DNA of 64,000 nucleotides, from contig CALXPO010000024.1 of NCBI GenBank assembly GCA_944390315.1, positions 778 to 64,777 of the forward strand, written 5' to 3'. The translations under genes and the position numbers were made by a program. Below the pieces are notes generated by a model. The model was not told the DNA's origin. It worked only from the letters and a program-made list of their open reading frames with translations, and ran no database searches. Shown here piece by piece: positions 24,007 to 37,218 of the stretch. Position 1 is the first letter of the stretch. Each line of letters opens with the position of its first letter. The DNA is from an uncultured Alphaproteobacteria bacterium (GTDB lineage: Bacteria; Pseudomonadota; Alphaproteobacteria; RF32; CAG-239).

Positions 24007-24034
24007 TATAAACCTCCTAAAATAAAAAGCAGGC

Positions 24035-24440
24035 AGTCTGTAAGCCGGGTTCTGTATCGCAAAATATCGGTAAATATTTCAACGATTGATAGCCATTCAT
24101 CTTGGCGATATGTTACCACATCGCTCGGTGCGACCTACCTCTGGAGAGAAGTGGAAACGCTTCTTATGATTGGTAAAAACCAAACCTCCTAACTTGGTCT
24201 TGCTTCAAACAGGGTTTACCTTGCCAAAATCGTTGCCGATTTTGCGGTGAGCTCTTACCTCGCCTTTTCAACCTTACCGGAACTTGTCCGGCGGTAACTT
24301 TCTGCGGCACTTTCCCTTGGATTGCTCCAGCCGGACGTTATCCGGTGTTCTGTTTCCACGAAGCCCGGACTTTCCTCATCAATGGATTTTCCTTTCCTTG
24401 ACGCGGCTATCCGACCGCCTGCCCTTAGAAAGGTAATATT
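24035..24440 (-). ncRNA. rnpB: RNase P RNA (bacterial type A). Ends are approximate.
   Basis: Minus strand contains the universal GAGGAAAGUCCGGGC, GGGAAAGUGCC.CAGAAA and ACAGAACCCGGCUUA motifs in the correct order. P1 pairing between 5' GGCAGGCGG and 3' GACUGCCUGC. Confidence 0.8.
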
Positions 24441-26142: not shown

Positions 26143-26531
26143 TGAATACAACAAAATCTGCCGCTATCTGCCTGTGGGCAGCCTTAACTGTTTTAACTGC
26201 CGTGATTTTTGCTACTTTCATTATGAAAAACAGAGTACAATCTCTCGAAAAAGAATTAGCCGGCATCAACCGCAGCATCAATGAAGACATGAAAACCATT
26301 CATATTCTCAAAGCGGAATGGAGCCATTTGAACAATCCCGAAAGATTGCGCAAACTGGCTCAGGAACATACCAATCTTAATCCTATTAAAGCCGAACAAA
26401 TCATTAGTTACGCTGCTCTGCCGTTTGATTTTGAAAACGGCGATAATCGCAAAATGCTTGCCCGACAAAACCTCAATAATATTGCCAACCGCAATAAAAA
26501 ATTGCGCCGCTTAGCCAAAGCCGAAAGATAA
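26142..26531 (+). CDS. ftsL: Cell division protein FtsL (small bitopic).
   Basis: Position between rsmH and ftsI. Single TM plus coiled coil. Confidence 0.65.
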   Translation: MNTTKSAAICLWAALTVLTAVIFATFIMKNRVQSLEKELAGINRSINEDMKTIHILKAEWSHLNNPERLRKLAQEHTNLNPIKAEQIISYAALPFDFENGDNRKMLARQNLNNIANRNKKLRRLAKAER

Positions 26532-33951: not shown

Positions 33952-35342
33952 TGAAATCGGAATTGCTCTTGCCCGCCGGCGATTTAGTCAAACTCAAAAC
34001 CGCAATTTTGTACGGTGCCGACGCCGTTTATGCCGGAACACCGGATATGAGTTTGCGCACTCAGTCAAAATTTTCGCTTGAAGATATTAAAGAAGGTATT
34101 GATTTTGTTCATCAAAAAGGCAAAAAAATATATCTGACGCTCAACCTTTACACCCATAATAAAGACATTGAAAAGCTGCCGCATTTTGTAAATACTCTGC
34201 GTGAGCTTAAACCGGACGGGGTTTTGATTGCCGACCCCGGCGTTTTCCTGTATTTGAAAGAAAATGCTCCCGAGCTTAAACGTTTTGTTTCAACTCAGGC
34301 CAATATCTGCTCTTATCAGACCGTCAAATTTTGGCAAAGTTTGGGAGCGACGCTTTGTGTTTTGGGAAGAGAAGTTTCTTTTGAAGAAATGAAAGAAATC
34401 AGACAACAATGCCCCGATATTATGCTCGAAACATTTGTTCACGGCGCAATGTGTATGTCTTATTCGGGACGTTGTTTGATTTCCAATTTTTTGGCCGACC
34501 GCAGCGCCAATCAGGGCAAATGCGCCCATTGTTGCCGTTGGCACTACAAACTGCACTTGCGCTTAAAAGACGGTACAATCAAAGATTTGGAAATCACCCC
34601 CGAAAACAAAGATATGTTTGAATATCTGGTCAAAGAAGATTTTCGTCCCGACGAACTCTACGAGATTGTCGAAGATGAACACGGCGCTTATATTATGAAC
34701 TCCAAAGATTTGTGCCTGATGCCCAAACTCAATCATATTTTGGATATCGGCATGCACTCGCTCAAAATCGAAGGACGCAATAAAACCGAATATTATGCCG
34801 CTATCACTGCCCGCAGCTATCGTCAGGCAATTGACGCTTATTATAAAAATCCCGAAAACTGGTCGCCCGATGTTTATATGAAAGAACTTTATACTTTGCA
34901 AAACCGCGGCTACTGCTTGGGCTTTTACGACGGACACCTAACCAATTTGAGCCAAAACTATGAATATACCCGCACTTTGGGCGACTGGCTGTTTGCCGGT
35001 TCCATTGTCGAATGGCAAGGCGATGATATTATTTTTGAATTGAGAAATTATATCGAATCAGGCGAATTTATTGAATTTTTGCTGCCGAACTCTCTTGAAA
35101 ACATTCGTTTGACTTTGCAAGAATTTCAAGATGCCGAAACCGGCGAAATCAGCGCAAAAGTTTCTGCCGGACAAGGTAAAAAAATTCGTATTCCGGCAAG
35201 TGCTTTCGGAATGAGCGCTGACAAGGTCAAGGAAATGCTGCCGCAATATTGCATTGCCCGCAAACCGGCAAAGCTCAAAGAAAGCGACCAAATCATGCTT
35301 AATCACAAAAAGAATGAATTTGATATTTTGTGTCAAAAATAA
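33951..35342 (+). CDS. Peptidase U32 family protein (YegQ/RlhA-like, possible 23S rRNA hydroxycytidine synthase).
   Basis: U32 signature (FVHGAMC.SYSGRCLIS) and a Cys cluster (CAHCCRWHY). Confidence 0.85.
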   Translation: MKSELLLPAGDLVKLKTAILYGADAVYAGTPDMSLRTQSKFSLEDIKEGIDFVHQKGKKIYLTLNLYTHNKDIEKLPHFVNTLRELKPDGVLIADPGVFLYLKENAPELKRFVSTQANICSYQTVKFWQSLGATLCVLGREVSFEEMKEIRQQCPDIMLETFVHGAMCMSYSGRCLISNFLADRSANQGKCAHCCRWHYKLHLRLKDGTIKDLEITPENKDMFEYLVKEDFRPDELYEIVEDEHGAYIMNSKDLCLMPKLNHILDIGMHSLKIEGRNKTEYYAAITARSYRQAIDAYYKNPENWSPDVYMKELYTLQNRGYCLGFYDGHLTNLSQNYEYTRTLGDWLFAGSIVEWQGDDIIFELRNYIESGEFIEFLLPNSLENIRLTLQEFQDAETGEISAKVSAGQGKKIRIPASAFGMSADKVKEMLPQYCIARKPAKLKESDQIMLNHKKNEFDILCQK

Positions 35343-35391
35343 TTTTTTGAATTAAAGTAAAAGCCTTGAAATTTTCAAGGCTTTTACTTTT

Positions 35392-35604
35392 TTATTGTAT
35401 ATCCAGATGAAGTTCTTTGCCATAGCATTTCAGCAATTTTTCATAGACGTCCCAATTTTTGAGCGAACCGATTTCCAGCGCATCTATTTGCTGCCAGTCC
35501 ACACCGCTTTGTTGGGAAATGTTATGAATACTCAAACCATGAGCGCAACGATACTCACGCAAGATTTCTCCCAATTGTTGTTTAATTTGTTTTTTTAGTT
35601 TCAT
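35392..35604 (-). CDS. XRE-family helix-turn-helix transcriptional regulator (70 aa).
   Basis: HTH pattern LREYRCAHGLSIHNISQQSGVDWQQIDALEIG. Confidence 0.55.
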   Translation of the reverse strand: MKLKKQIKQQLGEILREYRCAHGLSIHNISQQSGVDWQQIDALEIGSLKNWDVYEKLLKCYGKELHLDIQ

Positions 35605-35642
35605 CGGTCTAAACTCCCTTTTGTTTTGTTTGTTATTTTTGG

Positions 35643-35818
35643 TAAAACAAAACCGCCTTAAAAAATCTCAAGGCGGGGAGTTGACAACTGCACAAGAACA
35701 GTCTGGGTTATTCGCTGTACTTAAAAAAAAGAATACACTTATATCCCCAGCTCCCCTTAAAAGGAGTTGTTCTTTCTTGTGAGGAGCTGTCACACTCCGC
35801 CTCCGACCTCTCGGAGGC
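35643..35818 (-). ncRNA. Putative sRNA, copy A (about 176 nt). Minus-strand promoter TTGCCA-N17-TAATAT (35854 to 35826) and an intrinsic terminator (stem CCGCCUU/AAGGCGG + U-tract) ending near 35643.
   Basis: Perfect-spacing promoter and terminator bracket a structured RNA with several unpaired CUCC (anti-SD-like) motifs. No protein-coding potential. Confidence 0.4.
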
Positions 35819-35899
35819 AAAAGCCATATTAAAAAAATCCTGTTCGATTGGCAAGTCTTTTATTATACTTTCTCCCCTTTGTTTTGTTCATATTTTAGG

Positions 35900-36073
35900 T
35901 AAAACAAAACCGCCTTAAAAAATTTCAAGGCGGGGAGTTAGCAACTGCACAAGAACAGTCTGGGTTATTCGCTGTACTCCAAAAAGAATACACTTATATC
36001 CCCAGCTCCCCTTTAAAGGAGTTGTTCTTTCTTGTGAGGAGCTGCTACACTCCGCCTCCGACCTCTCGGAGAC
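35900..36073 (-). ncRNA. Putative sRNA, copy B. It is a paralog of copy A and has the same promoter (TTGCCA-N17-TAATAT at 36109 to 36081) and terminator.
   Basis: Same as copy A. Promoter, stems and terminator are all conserved between copies. Confidence 0.4.
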
Positions 36074-36207
36074 AAAAGCCATATTAAAAAAATCTTGTCC
36101 GATTGGCAAGTCTTTTTATCTCGTTTGAATATATCAAAACATGTTGAATAAAAAATATGAACGGCTATACTTTTAACATCCATTGCTAACTCAGAGGAAA
36201 TACCTAC

Positions 36208-37218
36208 ATGAAAAAAATTGCAATTTACGGCGCCGGACAAATCGGTACACAGGTCATGACTTATTTGCTCACAACTTGCAAAACCGAAGCCGAAGTTATT
36301 ATGTTTTCACCCCATAATTTTAAAAGAATTGAAGGGGCTTATGAAGATCTTAAAGATGCCGTCGCTCTCACAAATCAAAATACAATCTTACATTTTAAAC
36401 CAACAAACAATATTGTCGATTTAGCCCAATCCGATATTGTCTTTTTCTGTGCCGGAATTTTTCCCAAACCCGAAGAATATGAACAAGCTCTTCAAAAAGG
36501 AATTGATGATCGCTTGTTGCAAGCCGTCAAAAATACCGAAATACTGGACGCTTTTTGTCTTGCCGTCAATCAGGTTTGCCCCAAAGCTAAAATCTTTATT
36601 ATTACAAATCCGGTAGATCTGATGACAGAAATAGCGCGAAAAAAACTCCCCGATGCCGAAGTCTACGGATTGGGATGCTATCTTGATACGGCACGTTTCA
36701 AAAGAGAATTTGCCGAAATTATGCAACAAAACGGAACAAATCTCCGAATTGAAGATATCCACGCTTGGATACTCGGACATCACTCGGGAACCATGTTTTT
36801 GCACCAAGCCGATTTCACTTTTAAAGGACAAGAACTTTATCAACATCAAAACTTAAACAATCTTATGATGCAGGCTTTAACCAAAACCAGACAAAGAGGG
36901 CTTTTTATAACAAAACTAAACTGTGCTTCGCAAACACAAAAACTAAATAACGGCGCCTACTTTGCACCGGCAATGATGGTGTTTAATATTATAAAAGCAT
37001 TTCTCGAAAACCAAACAATTTTATTGCCGCTAAACCGAACATTTTATCCTCAGGACAATTTTAATTGCGAAGGAGCCGCTCAACTGCTCTGCAAAATTCA
37101 AAACGGAAATATTTATCCTGTTTTTTTGCAAAATACGCCGGAAGATATTAAAAATATGCAAGATAGCCTTGCCGAATACGAAATTGGAAAAAAGGCTTTA
37201 GCCGAATATATAAAATAA
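36208..37218 (+). CDS. Lactate/malate dehydrogenase family protein (divergent).
   Basis: N-terminal GAGQIG Rossmann motif, ITNPVD signature, and LDTARF and ILGHHSG active-site-like motifs. Confidence 0.6.
   Translation: MKKIAIYGAGQIGTQVMTYLLTTCKTEAEVIMFSPHNFKRIEGAYEDLKDAVALTNQNTILHFKPTNNIVDLAQSDIVFFCAGIFPKPEEYEQALQKGIDDRLLQAVKNTEILDAFCLAVNQVCPKAKIFIITNPVDLMTEIARKKLPDAEVYGLGCYLDTARFKREFAEIMQQNGTNLRIEDIHAWILGHHSGTMFLHQADFTFKGQELYQHQNLNNLMMQALTKTRQRGLFITKLNCASQTQKLNNGAYFAPAMMVFNIIKAFLENQTILLPLNRTFYPQDNFNCEGAAQLLCKIQNGNIYPVFLQNTPEDIKNMQDSLAEYEIGKKALAEYIK

What the first reader, a model, noticed from the sequence alone, without database searches (positions are those of the whole stretch)
35615..36128. 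Tandemly duplicated putative sRNA genes, each with a perfect sigma70 promoter and an intrinsic terminator
There are two roughly 257-bp units at about 93% identity. On the minus strand each unit has a TTGCCA-N17-TAATAT promoter and, about 176 nt downstream, a CCGCCUU...AAGGCGG stem plus U-tract. The predicted RNAs form several hairpins with unpaired CUCC motifs (CUCCUC, CUCCUU, CUCCCC) that could pair with Shine-Dalgarno sequences, an AbcR-like logic. The family is not recognisable by eye. The locus sits between an XRE HTH regulator and an LDH-like gene.
Basis: seen in the sequence. Interest (0 to 1): 0.7.

Follow-up and report, generated by a model that had tools for sequence, protein, structure and literature searches.

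The report
New structured RNA leading regulator gene
The two repeats are real copies of a previously undescribed, tightly folded ~175-nt RNA that always sits directly in front of one small DNA-binding regulator gene and probably throttles that gene's expression, much like the Brt-Trp pairs of Bartonella.

Summary
There are two 255-bp tandem units (92% identity), and each carries a conserved TTGCCA-N17-TAATAT promoter, a ~177-nt RNA and an intrinsic terminator on the minus strand.

The RNA is a genuine structured family. Eighteen distinct copies from about eight lineages of uncultured bacteria (one labelled Alphaproteobacteria) keep the same six helices plus terminator. In that set 97% of cells are paired, and 35 of 56 pairs show compensatory changes. 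Rfam 15 has no match.

The RNA is never free-standing. In every lineage, whatever the neighbouring genes, 1-3 units lie directly upstream of, and co-oriented with, one narrow subfamily of 70-120-aa XRE helix-turn-helix genes. Only 27-45 nt separate the last terminator from the start codon, so the gene has no room for a promoter of its own.

The most likely function is a terminated leader (attenuator) of the XRE mRNA, released as a stable RNA. In read-through transcripts a conserved AACUCCC is predicted to sequester the XRE ribosome-binding site.

The AbcR-like reading (unpaired CUCC seeds) is not supported, because those motifs lie inside conserved or covarying helices.

The closest known system is Bartonella Brt-Trp. 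The architecture is the same, but homology was tested and not found. I rate this a new variant of a known kind, of moderate interest.

The parts
35614..36116 (-). Tandem array of two 255-bp units. Each unit runs from an A-rich upstream element and promoter, through the RNA and terminator, to an SD-like GGGAG or GGGGAG.
   Evidence: TRF period 255, 2.0 copies, 92% matches. Alignment A1. The same inter-unit junction occurs in other species, L008/L017/L019/L020.
36081..36109 (-). Promoter of the distal unit (unit 2): TTGCCA-N17-TAATAT.
   Evidence: Consensus scan, 9 of 12 matches. The -35 CTTGC(C/T/A)AA and the -10 TAATAT are conserved in every unit of the multi-copy lineages. In the two distant single-copy lineages whose promoter region is held, the -10 is TAATAT (L034) and, by my reading, TATTAT (L038).
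35899..36075 (-). RNA copy 2 (177 nt): P1 5' hairpin, P2-P3 long-range stem, P4 hairpin, P5-internal loop-P6 arm, terminator.
   Evidence: cmsearch with R1, 204.1 bits. MFE -77.7 kcal/mol, z -7.19. Differs from copy 1 by compensatory changes in P2 (AGC/GCU versus GAC/GUC).
35910..35933 (-). Intrinsic terminator stem-loop of unit 2, followed by UUUUGUUUU at 35909..35901.
   Evidence: Terminator scan: 10 pairs, 5 GC pairs. Helix 8 covaries across lineages.
35872..35877 (-). SD-like GGGGAG in the inter-unit junction. It is a duplicated copy of the XRE ribosome-binding region with no ORF behind it.
   Evidence: Read from the sequence. The junction is conserved in L008, L017, L019 and L020.
35826..35854 (-). 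Promoter of the proximal unit (unit 1): TTGCCA-N17-TAATAT.
   Evidence: Consensus scan and conservation.
35642..35820 (-). RNA copy 1 (179 nt). It is also the 5' leader of the XRE mRNA when the terminator is read through.
   Evidence: cmsearch with R1, 205.7 bits. MFE -73.9 kcal/mol, z -6.08. The same fold is obtained independently for eight sequences.
35799..35818 (-). P1: 8-bp 5'-terminal hairpin GCCUCCGA-GAGG-UCGGAGGC.
   Evidence: Helix 1 is 98.6% paired, with 3 pairs changed on both sides once distant homologues are added. The loop reads GAGA in L022 and GAAA in L034.
35699..35742 (-). P5/P6 arm with the most conserved unpaired nucleotides: internal loop GA(U/A)AUAAG / CGAAUAA, then the junction AGACUG.
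   Evidence: Invariant columns in A2. The pattern ATAAG...CGAATAM....DRCTG occurs only twice in the window, where 0.00 is expected by chance. GAAUAA and ACUG persist in L034 and L038, where P6 is absent.
35653..35676 (-). Intrinsic terminator stem-loop of unit 1, followed by UUUUGUUUU at 35652..35644.
   Evidence: Terminator scan and covariation in helix 8.
35676..35682 (-). AACUCCC: the 3' strand of the P2 base, and the predicted anti-SD for the XRE gene.
   Evidence: Complementary to GGGAGUU at 35618..35612. There are 7-8 contiguous pairs in all six lineages examined, and one position changed on both sides in L038.
35612..35618 (-). Shine-Dalgarno GGGAG plus UU of the XRE gene, 7 nt upstream of the ATG at 35604.
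   Evidence: Read from the sequence. Conserved as (G)GGAGUU in all XRE-proximal units.
35392..35604 (-). 70-aa XRE (Cro/C1-type) helix-turn-helix gene, the invariant partner of the RNA. There is no promoter between the terminator and its ATG.
   Evidence: ORF list. Pfam HTH_25 and HTH_31 match below threshold. AF2 model pLDDT 74.5. Foldseek top hits are C.BclI, HipB and XRE regulators, TM 0.72-0.80. No promoter-like site lies in 35642..35604.
35354..35390 (.). 17-bp hairpin flanked by A- and T-runs. It is a bidirectional terminator closing the XRE gene (-) and the convergent U32 peptidase gene (+).
   Evidence: Terminator scan. Its weak Rfam 'ohsC' hits below the gathering score (33.5 and 30.5 versus 50 bits) are hairpin-only matches.

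Best explanation
The locus encodes a new family of ~160-180-nt highly structured RNAs that form a fixed module with a small XRE-family helix-turn-helix regulator gene.

Each unit is transcribed from its own sigma-70-type promoter. The RNA folds into a 5' hairpin plus a three-way-junction domain closed by a long-range helix, and most transcripts end at a strong intrinsic terminator. This releases a stable RNA.

The XRE gene has no promoter of its own, so it can only be expressed when RNA polymerase reads through the last terminator. The RNA is therefore also the 5' leader, or attenuator, of the XRE mRNA.

In the read-through transcript, the 3' strand of the P2 base (AACUCCC) is predicted to leave its partner GGAGU and pair with the XRE Shine-Dalgarno (GGGAGUU). 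This pairing would close a three-way fold around the terminator hairpin and a U-tract:A-tract hairpin, giving a second, translational brake.

The net effect would be a lot of RNA and very little regulator, with the ratio open to modulation by an unknown signal acting on the folded domain. The tandem extra copies (two here, three in a relative, one in distant relatives) are duplications of the whole promoter-RNA-terminator-SD unit. They add RNA dosage and extra terminators.

What is shown: the RNA structure, its strand, the conserved promoter and terminator, the invariant linkage to the XRE gene, and the lack of room for a promoter. What is inferred: attenuation, SD sequestration, any feedback by the XRE protein, and any trans-acting role.
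For: 1. Real RNA with a conserved fold. Eighteen distinct copies have 97.1% of cells paired, and 35 of 56 pairs change on both sides. No shuffle out of 500 reaches these values, and slid controls give 38-45% paired. Every helix covaries (smaller set). Each sequence folds into the same architecture on its own.

2. Strand. Covariance-model hits occur only on the strand co-oriented with the XRE gene. Many G-U pairs would be A-C mismatches on the other strand.

3. Linkage. The RNA lies immediately upstream of the XRE homologue in every lineage, despite different neighbours: acylphosphatase/LDH-like/U32 in the window; PEGA/topA in L008; small ORFs/ribosomal protein operon in L022 and L032; gyrA/pheT in L034; tig/ABC-F in L038. 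All three distant XRE homologues taken from an exhaustive HMMER search also carry the RNA, at 85, 70-76 and 161 bits. No further copy exists elsewhere in the 64-kb window.

4. No own promoter. Only 27-45 nt separate the terminator U-tract from the start codon, and no promoter-like site lies there.

5. SD sequestration. A[A/G]CUCC(C/U) and (G)GGAGUU give 7-8 contiguous pairs in six lineages. The same three-way MFE fold is found in all six, and one pair changes C-G to U-A.

6. Precedent. In Bartonella henselae, the Brt RNAs lie about 15 nt upstream of promoter-less XRE genes (trp). Deleting the Brt1 3' stem-loop raises trp1 transcription (PMC5387305, PMC8070961).

7. No long conserved single-stranded stretch exists that could act as a classical seed.
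Against: There are no expression data: all sequences come from metagenomes or MAGs.

No mutually exclusive antiterminator was found. When the 3' arm of the terminator is withheld, its 5' arm simply stays unpaired in all eight sequences tested. Termination therefore looks constitutive, and regulated read-through is an assumption.

SD:anti-SD complementarity is partly expected by composition, because the RNA is rich in CUCC/GGAG helices. It rests on a single double change.

The upstream copies in arrays are separated from the XRE gene by a further promoter and terminator. They cannot act as simple leaders, which suggests the released RNA has a function of its own.

The single-copy contigs of the window's species and of the L022 type may be assembly variants.
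Confidence: 0.6

Rival explanations
1. Independent trans-acting sibling sRNAs. The terminated ~177-nt RNAs would base-pair with mRNAs elsewhere, for example through CU-rich motifs against Shine-Dalgarno sequences as in AbcR, LhrC or CcsR. The XRE gene would then be only their transcriptional regulator, or an unrelated neighbour expressed by leakage.
For: Each unit is a complete gene with its own conserved promoter and a strong terminator. Copy number is 2-3 in several lineages, as is typical of sibling sRNAs. Upstream copies cannot be simple leaders. Termination appears constitutive. Brt1 was also proposed to act in trans.
Against: The CUCC motifs are in helices, not in loops. P1's CCUCC is not conserved in distant members. 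The conserved unpaired nucleotides are short junction or internal-loop elements, not a seed. The RNA never occurs apart from the XRE gene, and it is single-copy in distant lineages. There is no match to AbcR or any other sRNA family in Rfam.
Confidence: 0.2
2. A ligand-sensing riboswitch. The three-way-junction domain would be an aptamer for a metabolite or ion, and binding would alter terminator efficiency or SD access for the XRE regulator.
For: The layout is the classical promoter - conserved structured domain - terminator - ORF. The invariant nucleotides are concentrated in junctions and in an internal loop, GA(W)AUAAG/CGAAUAA. P2 abuts the terminator and shares its 3' strand with the predicted anti-SD. 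Heme responsiveness has been claimed for Brt1.
Against: No antiterminator alternative was found. The controlled gene is a generic regulator, so it gives no clue to a ligand. Each tandem copy has its own promoter, unlike known tandem riboswitches. P6 is dispensable and the P4 loop is variable.
Confidence: 0.12
3. An RNA-protein partnership. The abundant RNA would bind or titrate the XRE protein (as a decoy or sponge, or by a type III toxin-antitoxin-like stoichiometry set by the terminator), or the protein would bind its own leader to control read-through.
For: There is strict co-occurrence of one RNA family with one narrow XRE subfamily: 14 representatives at E<1e-10 among 1.84 billion. An RNA excess over protein is built in by the terminator. 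The repeat-array-then-terminator-then-gene layout resembles ToxI-ToxN (resemblance recalled from memory).
Against: The protein is predicted to be an ordinary Cro/C1-type DNA-binding HTH, and no RNA-binding feature was detected. There is no toxin-like domain: the PADLOC hits are HTH only. Co-occurrence is equally well explained by cis-regulation.
Confidence: 0.06
4. A divergent member (true homologue) of the Bartonella Brt RNA family.
For: The module architecture is the same. The promoters look alike: TTGCTAAACTCATAAGATTTTTTTAATAT in L017 versus TTGCTAAACTTCCAAGATTATTTTATGAG on pBGR3, which is 22 of 29 identical by my own count. At least the L022 lineage is labelled Alphaproteobacteria, as Bartonella is.
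Against: The covariance model of this family finds nothing at the Brt locus of pBGR3. A Brt covariance model finds Brt copies at 246 and 226 bits, but nothing above 9 bits in the window or related loci. blastn with word size 7 finds nothing in either direction. Trp proteins score only ~16 bits against the XRE-subfamily profile, whereas the weakest listed database hits score about 35 bits.
Confidence: 0.02

Closest known systems
Brt-Trp modules of Bartonella (Bartonella regulatory transcripts Brt1-9 with downstream XRE-family trp genes; Tu et al. 2016, PMC5387305; review PMC8070961)
   Same: Both have a highly structured RNA of about 180-200 nt with its own promoter. The RNA lies immediately upstream of, and co-oriented with, a small XRE helix-turn-helix gene that has no discernible promoter. 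A 3' stem-loop acts, or is predicted to act, as a transcription attenuator. Both are multicopy and both occur in Alphaproteobacteria. In both, the gene's ribosome-binding site lies within or next to the 3' structure.
   Different: No sequence or structure homology is detectable, and the proteins are not specially related. Here a canonical GC-stem plus U-tract terminator lies 27-45 nt before the ATG. Here complete RNA units are repeated in tandem before a single XRE gene, whereas Bartonella has one Brt per trp, dispersed over a 277-kb region. The partner protein here is mostly 70-83 aa (homologues up to about 120 aa), against 108-152 aa for Trp. The genomic context here is housekeeping, not a plastic prophage-rich region.
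Transcription-terminating riboswitches and leaders that also yield stable terminated RNAs (for example SreA/SreB in Listeria, or RZ from the SAM-II metZ riboswitch in Sinorhizobium, PMC9373788)
   Same: Both share the promoter - conserved folded domain - intrinsic terminator - ORF layout, and in both the terminated product accumulates as an sRNA-like species.
   Different: No ligand is known and no antiterminator was detected. Each tandem copy has its own promoter. The controlled gene is a transcription factor, not a metabolic gene.
Tandem sibling sRNAs with CU-rich anti-SD motifs (AbcR1/2, CcsR1-4 'cuckoo', LhrC1-5)
   Same: Both consist of tandemly repeated sRNA genes, each with a promoter and a terminator, and both have CUCC-rich sequence.
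   Different: In those families the CU-rich motifs sit in exposed loops or linkers and act as seeds. Here they are helix strands. There is no Rfam match. Here the linkage to a downstream gene is obligatory.
Candidate structured RNAs near HTH-XRE genes in human microbiomes (Fremin & Bhatt 2021, PMC8040213)
   Same: That survey lists HTH-XRE as one of the two most frequent gene neighbours of its new candidate structured RNAs (100 candidates). This suggests that RNA-XRE pairing is a recurrent design.
   Different: Those candidates are uncharacterised. This RNA's sequence was not found in the 200 of 408 supplementary files that could be searched, so identity with any of them is unknown.

Membership tests
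Brt RNA family (Bartonella) | Sequence and secondary-structure homology to Brt1-9 | tested here: not met
   The Brt covariance model R2 was built from Brt1, Brt6, Brt7 and the pBGR3 copy. It finds the positive controls in L031 at 246 and 226 bits, but nothing above 9 bits (E 0.59) in the window, L008, L017, L019 or L022. The reciprocal model R1 finds nothing on pBGR3. blastn with word size 7 is negative in both directions.
Brt RNA family (Bartonella) | Located immediately upstream of an XRE-HTH gene that lacks its own promoter | tested here: met
   There are 27-45 nt between the terminator and the start codon in all lineages, and no promoter-like site lies there.
Brt RNA family (Bartonella) | The 3' stem-loop attenuates transcription of the downstream gene | not testable with these tools
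   A canonical intrinsic terminator is predicted and covaries. Attenuation itself needs transcript mapping or reporter assays.
Brt RNA family (Bartonella) | The downstream protein belongs to the Trp clade of XRE proteins | tested here: not met
   The best Trp-family protein scores 16 bits against the profile of this XRE subfamily, whereas the weakest listed database hits score about 35 bits. Pairwise comparison gives 35% identity over only 37 HTH residues.
AbcR / CU-rich anti-SD sibling sRNAs | Match to the family covariance models (Rfam) | tested here: not met
   No Rfam 15 hit is found in 35300-36300 even at E up to 10, apart from noise (PyrR at E 2.8; hairpin-only hits on the neighbouring terminator).
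AbcR / CU-rich anti-SD sibling sRNAs | CU-rich motif exposed in a loop or single-stranded linker and conserved as a seed | tested here: not met
   CUCCUU is the P4 5' arm and CUCCCC is the P2 3' strand, and both are paired in at least 94% of cells. The P1 CCUCC is replaced by CAUUC or CAUCC in L034 and L038.
AbcR / CU-rich anti-SD sibling sRNAs | Tandem genes, each with its own promoter and terminator | tested here: met
Transcriptional (terminator-type) riboswitch | Conserved, covarying structured domain in the 5' leader of the regulated gene, on the same strand | tested here: met
   with strand-specific covariance-model hits.
Transcriptional (terminator-type) riboswitch | Expression platform with mutually exclusive terminator and antiterminator | tested here: inconclusive
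   The terminator is present. Folding without its 3' arm gives no alternative pairing of the 5' arm in eight sequences. Only a weak GAGGCGG:CCGCCUU possibility was seen by eye, in invariant sequence.
Transcriptional (terminator-type) riboswitch | Specific ligand binding | not testable with these tools
   No ligand clue is available. The regulated gene is a generic regulator.
XRE (Cro/C1-type) HTH protein family, for the partner gene | Cro/C1-type helix-turn-helix fold | tested here: met
   The AF2 model has four helices and pLDDT 74.5. Foldseek finds C.BclI, HipB, C.AhdI, ClgR and SinR at TM 0.6-0.8. Sequence hits are only sub-threshold: Pfam HTH_25 at 20.1 bits against a cut-off of 24.6.

The most novel reading that the evidence does not exclude
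The folded three-way-junction domain may be a sensor (aptamer) for an unknown small molecule or cellular factor that sets terminator read-through and SD exposure for a dedicated XRE regulator. Together with Bartonella Brt-Trp and the many uncharacterised 'structured RNA next to HTH-XRE' candidates in microbiomes, it would then define a recurrent, convergently evolved regulatory design: a structured RNA gate in front of a promoter-less XRE gene. In this design the released RNA would double as a trans-acting or protein-titrating effector.
Probability: 0.2. Interest if true: 0.7.

Novelty: new variant of a known kind. Interest (0 to 1): 0.5.

Why it matters
The locus adds a well-supported new structured RNA family. 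Its covariation in every helix is of the quality needed for an Rfam entry, and it comes from uncultured bacteria for which almost nothing is known about RNA regulation.

It also shows that the unusual Brt-Trp arrangement, so far considered specific to the genus Bartonella, has an independent counterpart elsewhere: a highly structured, terminated RNA in front of a promoter-less XRE regulator. This turns a curiosity into a possible general design.

The locus offers a simpler system for asking how such RNA gates work. It has a canonical terminator, a clear anti-SD and a 70-aa regulator. If the domain senses a signal, it would be a new sensor class controlling a transcription factor.

Practically, the covariance model can be used to annotate these loci. 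This would avoid calling the spurious 48-64-aa ORFs that overlap them.

Tried and rejected
1. Known RNA family. Rfam 15 gives nothing here, either at gathering thresholds on the whole window or at E up to 10 on 35300-36300.

2. Plus-strand element or leader of the LDH-like gene. The plus strand also folds well (z -5.5), as any reverse complement of a structured RNA does. However, the covariance-model hits, the G-U pairs, and the promoter and terminator all point to the minus strand. The LDH-like gene is also absent from the syntenic site in L017, L019 and L020.

3. Small protein or leader peptide. The 39-55-codon ORFs start at an ATG inside the -10 box. They change frame between species and are absent in L022, L034 and L038.

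4. Homology to Brt. Rejected as detailed above. Brt itself is not in Rfam.

5. Mobile, phage or plasmid origin. The conserved pattern is absent from viral contigs. blastn against plasmids gives only chance hits. The neighbouring genes are housekeeping genes.

6. Wider distribution. One pattern scan of GTDB species genomes gave one true locus (L022) and two chance hits. The JGI metagenome scan gave only a high-GC chance hit. Both scans used a strict 20-nt pattern, so distant members such as L034 and L038 would have been missed.

7. Defence or toxin-antitoxin role of the protein. PADLOC and NCBIfam give only generic sub-threshold HTH hits.

8. Formal pair counting for the SD:anti-SD helix. MAFFT misaligned the variable spacers, so only the per-lineage listing and folds are offered.

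9. Taxonomy and environment. Cluster look-up gave no names, and a literature search for the sample codes gave nothing.

10. Extra copies. No further copy of the RNA was found elsewhere in the 64-kb window.
Full report
**The observation**

Tandem Repeats Finder reports a single array at 35614-36116 with period 255, 2.0 copies and 92% matches. Aligning the two units gives 94% mean column identity.

On the minus strand, each unit carries TTGCCA-N17-TAATAT (35854..35826 and 36109..36081). This is 9 of 12 matches to the sigma-70 consensus. Each unit also carries a 10-bp GC-rich hairpin followed by TTTTGTTTTA (35676..35653 and 35933..35910).

The RNAs delimited by these signals fold much better than dinucleotide shuffles, with z = -6.1 and -7.2. 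They run from about 35820 to 35642 and from about 36075 to 35899.

The array lies between a 70-aa helix-turn-helix gene at 35604..35392 (minus strand) and an LDH/MDH-like gene at 36208..37218 (plus strand). The only correction at this level is that the promoter is good rather than perfect.

**It is a real, structured RNA**

Rfam 15 has no match, even at permissive thresholds. I therefore collected relatives through the neighbouring proteins.

Contigs carrying the identical LDH-like protein gave the same species, with one or two units. Homologues of the small HTH protein led to other species:
- L008.
- L017, L019 and L020.
- An 'uncultured Alphaproteobacteria bacterium' MAG, L022, found by a pattern scan of GTDB genomes. 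It has three tandem units.

A covariance model built from 14 distinct units (R1) found no further copy in the 64-kb window.

An exhaustive HMMER search with the HTH-protein profile then gave more distant relatives. All three that I could look up have one RNA unit directly upstream: L034 at 85 bits, L038/L039 at 70-76 bits, and L042 at 161 bits.

On the final alignment of 18 distinct RNAs, 97.1% of cells form standard pairs, and 35 of 56 pairs show changes on both sides. None of 500 column shuffles reaches the observed values, and sliding the 3' partners by 1-3 columns drops pairing to 38-45%. Every helix contains compensatory changes (smaller set). Eight representatives fold into the same architecture when folded individually.

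**The architecture**

The elements, in order, are:
- P1, an 8-bp 5'-terminal hairpin.
- P2 and P3, a long-range stem. All seven P3 pairs covary.
- A three-way junction carrying P4 (CUCC/GGGGAG) and the P5 arm.
- In P5, a highly conserved internal loop GA(U/A)AUAAG / CGAAUAA and a variable P6, which is short in L022 and absent in L034 and L038.
- The junction AGACUG.
- The terminator, immediately after P2.

From memory, the loop resembles a UAA/GAN-type internal loop. This is a lead, not a test.

The open reading frames that overlap the RNA start inside the -10 box, shift frame between species and vanish in distant members. The element is therefore non-coding. Covariance-model hits are always on the strand co-oriented with the HTH gene.

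**The link to the XRE gene**

The RNA is never found alone.

The surrounding genes differ between lineages:
- acylphosphatase - (LDH-like) - RNA - XRE - U32 peptidase in the window and in L017-L020.
- PEGA-domain protein and topA in L008.
- Small ORFs and the ribosomal-protein operon in L022 and L032.
- gyrA and pheT in L034.
- tig and an ABC-F gene in L038.

Yet the order is always the same: promoter, RNA, terminator, a 27-45-nt spacer, Shine-Dalgarno, and the ATG of one narrow XRE subfamily.

That subfamily is tiny. It has 7 clusters at 90% identity among 5.8 billion proteins, and 14 representatives at E<1e-10 among 1.84 billion. Its predicted fold is an ordinary Cro/C1-type HTH.

There is no room and no signal for a separate promoter between the terminator and the ATG. 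The gene can therefore only be transcribed by read-through from the RNA promoter.

Distant lineages have one unit. The window's clade has two, with an identical inter-unit junction in several species, so that duplication is old. L022 has three. The repeat unit includes an SD-like GGGGAG, which shows that the whole promoter-to-SD segment was duplicated.

**Mechanism**

Shown: the structure, the strand, the conserved promoter and terminator, the obligatory linkage, and the lack of a separate promoter.

Inferred: most transcripts terminate, releasing the ~177-nt RNA, and rare read-through produces the XRE mRNA, whose leader is the RNA.

Folding the read-through transcript predicts a rearrangement. 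The 3' strand of the P2 base (AACUCCC, 35682..35676) leaves GGAGU and pairs with the XRE Shine-Dalgarno plus two U residues (GGGAGUU, 35618..35612). This closes a three-way fold around the terminator hairpin and a hairpin between the U-tract (UUUUGUUUU) and a downstream A-tract (AAAACAAAA).

The same fold is the MFE in six lineages. The complementarity is 7-8 contiguous pairs in each, and one position changes from C-G to U-A in L038. This evidence is suggestive but thin, because CUCC/GGAG complementarity is built into this RNA.

I found no antiterminator. With the terminator's 3' arm withheld, its 5' arm stays unpaired in all eight sequences tested. Either termination is a constitutive throttle, or an external factor modulates it.

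The upstream copies in arrays cannot be simple leaders. A function for the released RNA (trans-acting, or binding the protein) therefore remains open.

**Comparison with known systems**

A literature search led to the Brt-Trp system of Bartonella henselae. It comprises nine 194-203-nt, highly expressed, highly structured RNAs. Each lies about 15 nt upstream of a poorly transcribed XRE-family gene that has no discernible promoter. Deleting the Brt1 3' stem-loop raises trp1 transcription, and a trans role has also been proposed (PMC5387305; PMC8070961). This is the same design.

I tested membership directly:
- I obtained Brt sequences from plasmid pBGR3 and from B. henselae genomes.
- My model finds nothing at the Brt locus.
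- A Brt model that recovers Brt copies at 246 and 226 bits finds nothing above 9 bits in this family.
- blastn is negative in both directions.
- Trp proteins score only ~16 bits against the XRE-subfamily profile.
- Brt itself is not in Rfam.

So this element works like Brt-Trp but is not a detectable member of that family.

The AbcR-like reading fails its defining test. The CU-rich motifs are helix strands, and P1's CCUCC is not conserved.

A microbiome-wide survey noted HTH-XRE as one of the commonest neighbours of new candidate structured RNAs (PMC8040213). I could not find this sequence in the part of its supplement that is searchable.

**Verdict**

The best explanation is a new RNA family acting as a terminated leader/attenuator, and probably a translational gate, of a dedicated XRE regulator (confidence 0.6). 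The extra tandem copies add RNA dosage.

The rivals are: a purely trans-acting sibling sRNA (0.2), a ligand-sensing riboswitch (0.12), an RNA-protein titration pair (0.06), and true Brt homology (0.02).

Novelty: a new variant of a known kind. Interest is moderate (0.5). The family is well supported and broadens a design thought to be specific to Bartonella, but it is narrow in distribution, comes from uncultured organisms, and lacks expression data.

Noticed in passing
window 24025-24422 (-): Bacterial RNase P RNA class A, 288 bits, full length. It is the only Rfam gathering-threshold hit in the window.
   Followed up: no
window 35862-35890 (-): A third promoter-like site, TGAACA-N17-TATAAT (10 of 12, better than the RNA promoters), lies in the junction between the two units. 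Its -10-like box persists in other species' junctions as TATGAT, TATTAT or TATATT. It could be a second start point, or part of an A/T-rich UP element of the proximal promoter.
   Followed up: partly
window 36208-37218 (+): The LDH/MDH-like gene (Ldh_1_N; 126 bits against the malate dehydrogenase subfamily model, well below its cut-off of 283) is absent from the syntenic site in L017, L019 and L020. There the acylphosphatase gene is followed directly by the RNA array. The gene therefore looks like a lineage-specific insertion or loss, and its sequence is divergent.
   Followed up: partly
L001, L002, L005 versus window, L003, L004: Assemblies of the same species carry either two units or one mosaic unit. 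The L001 unit switches unit-2-like / unit-1-like / unit-2-like / unit-1-like along its length. This does not fit a single crossover or a simple assembly collapse, and suggests gene conversion or real strain alleles. Likewise, L032 and L033 have one unit where L022 has three.
   Followed up: partly
L022 1622-2869 (+): Three tandem 96-aa ORFs plus a 90-aa ORF lie directly upstream of the three-unit RNA array. None has a Pfam match. It is an unexplained small-gene array.
   Followed up: partly
L025 (pBGR3) 26440-26470; L030; L017 120-160: The Brt promoters of Bartonella resemble the promoters of this RNA family. Both have TTGCTAAAC..AAGATT.TTTTA with the same 17-nt spacing, and 22 of 29 positions are identical in the best pair, even though the RNAs and proteins are not detectably homologous. 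Significance was not assessed, because the best pair was chosen among many.
   Followed up: partly
proteins P0148, P0150, P0153, P0154: The XRE-subfamily profile also hits long proteins (361-807 aa) containing 4-8 tandem copies of the same small HTH domain. This is an unusual architecture, and its origin is unknown.
   Followed up: no
terminator tails of the RNA copies (e.g. window 35644-35652): The terminator U-tract reads UUUUGUUU(U) in most of the RNA copies, including the distant ones; the exception seen is L022a, which reads AUUUUUUUU. In most XRE-proximal units it is matched by a downstream AAAACAAAA or AAACAAAA. A plain U-tract would be expected to drift more, so the G may be kept for this pairing or for a protein such as Hfq.
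   Followed up: partly
L030 4481-4642 (+): The 6S RNA gene of Bartonella henselae lies next to the Brt6-Brt8 cluster (73.6 bits).
   Followed up: no
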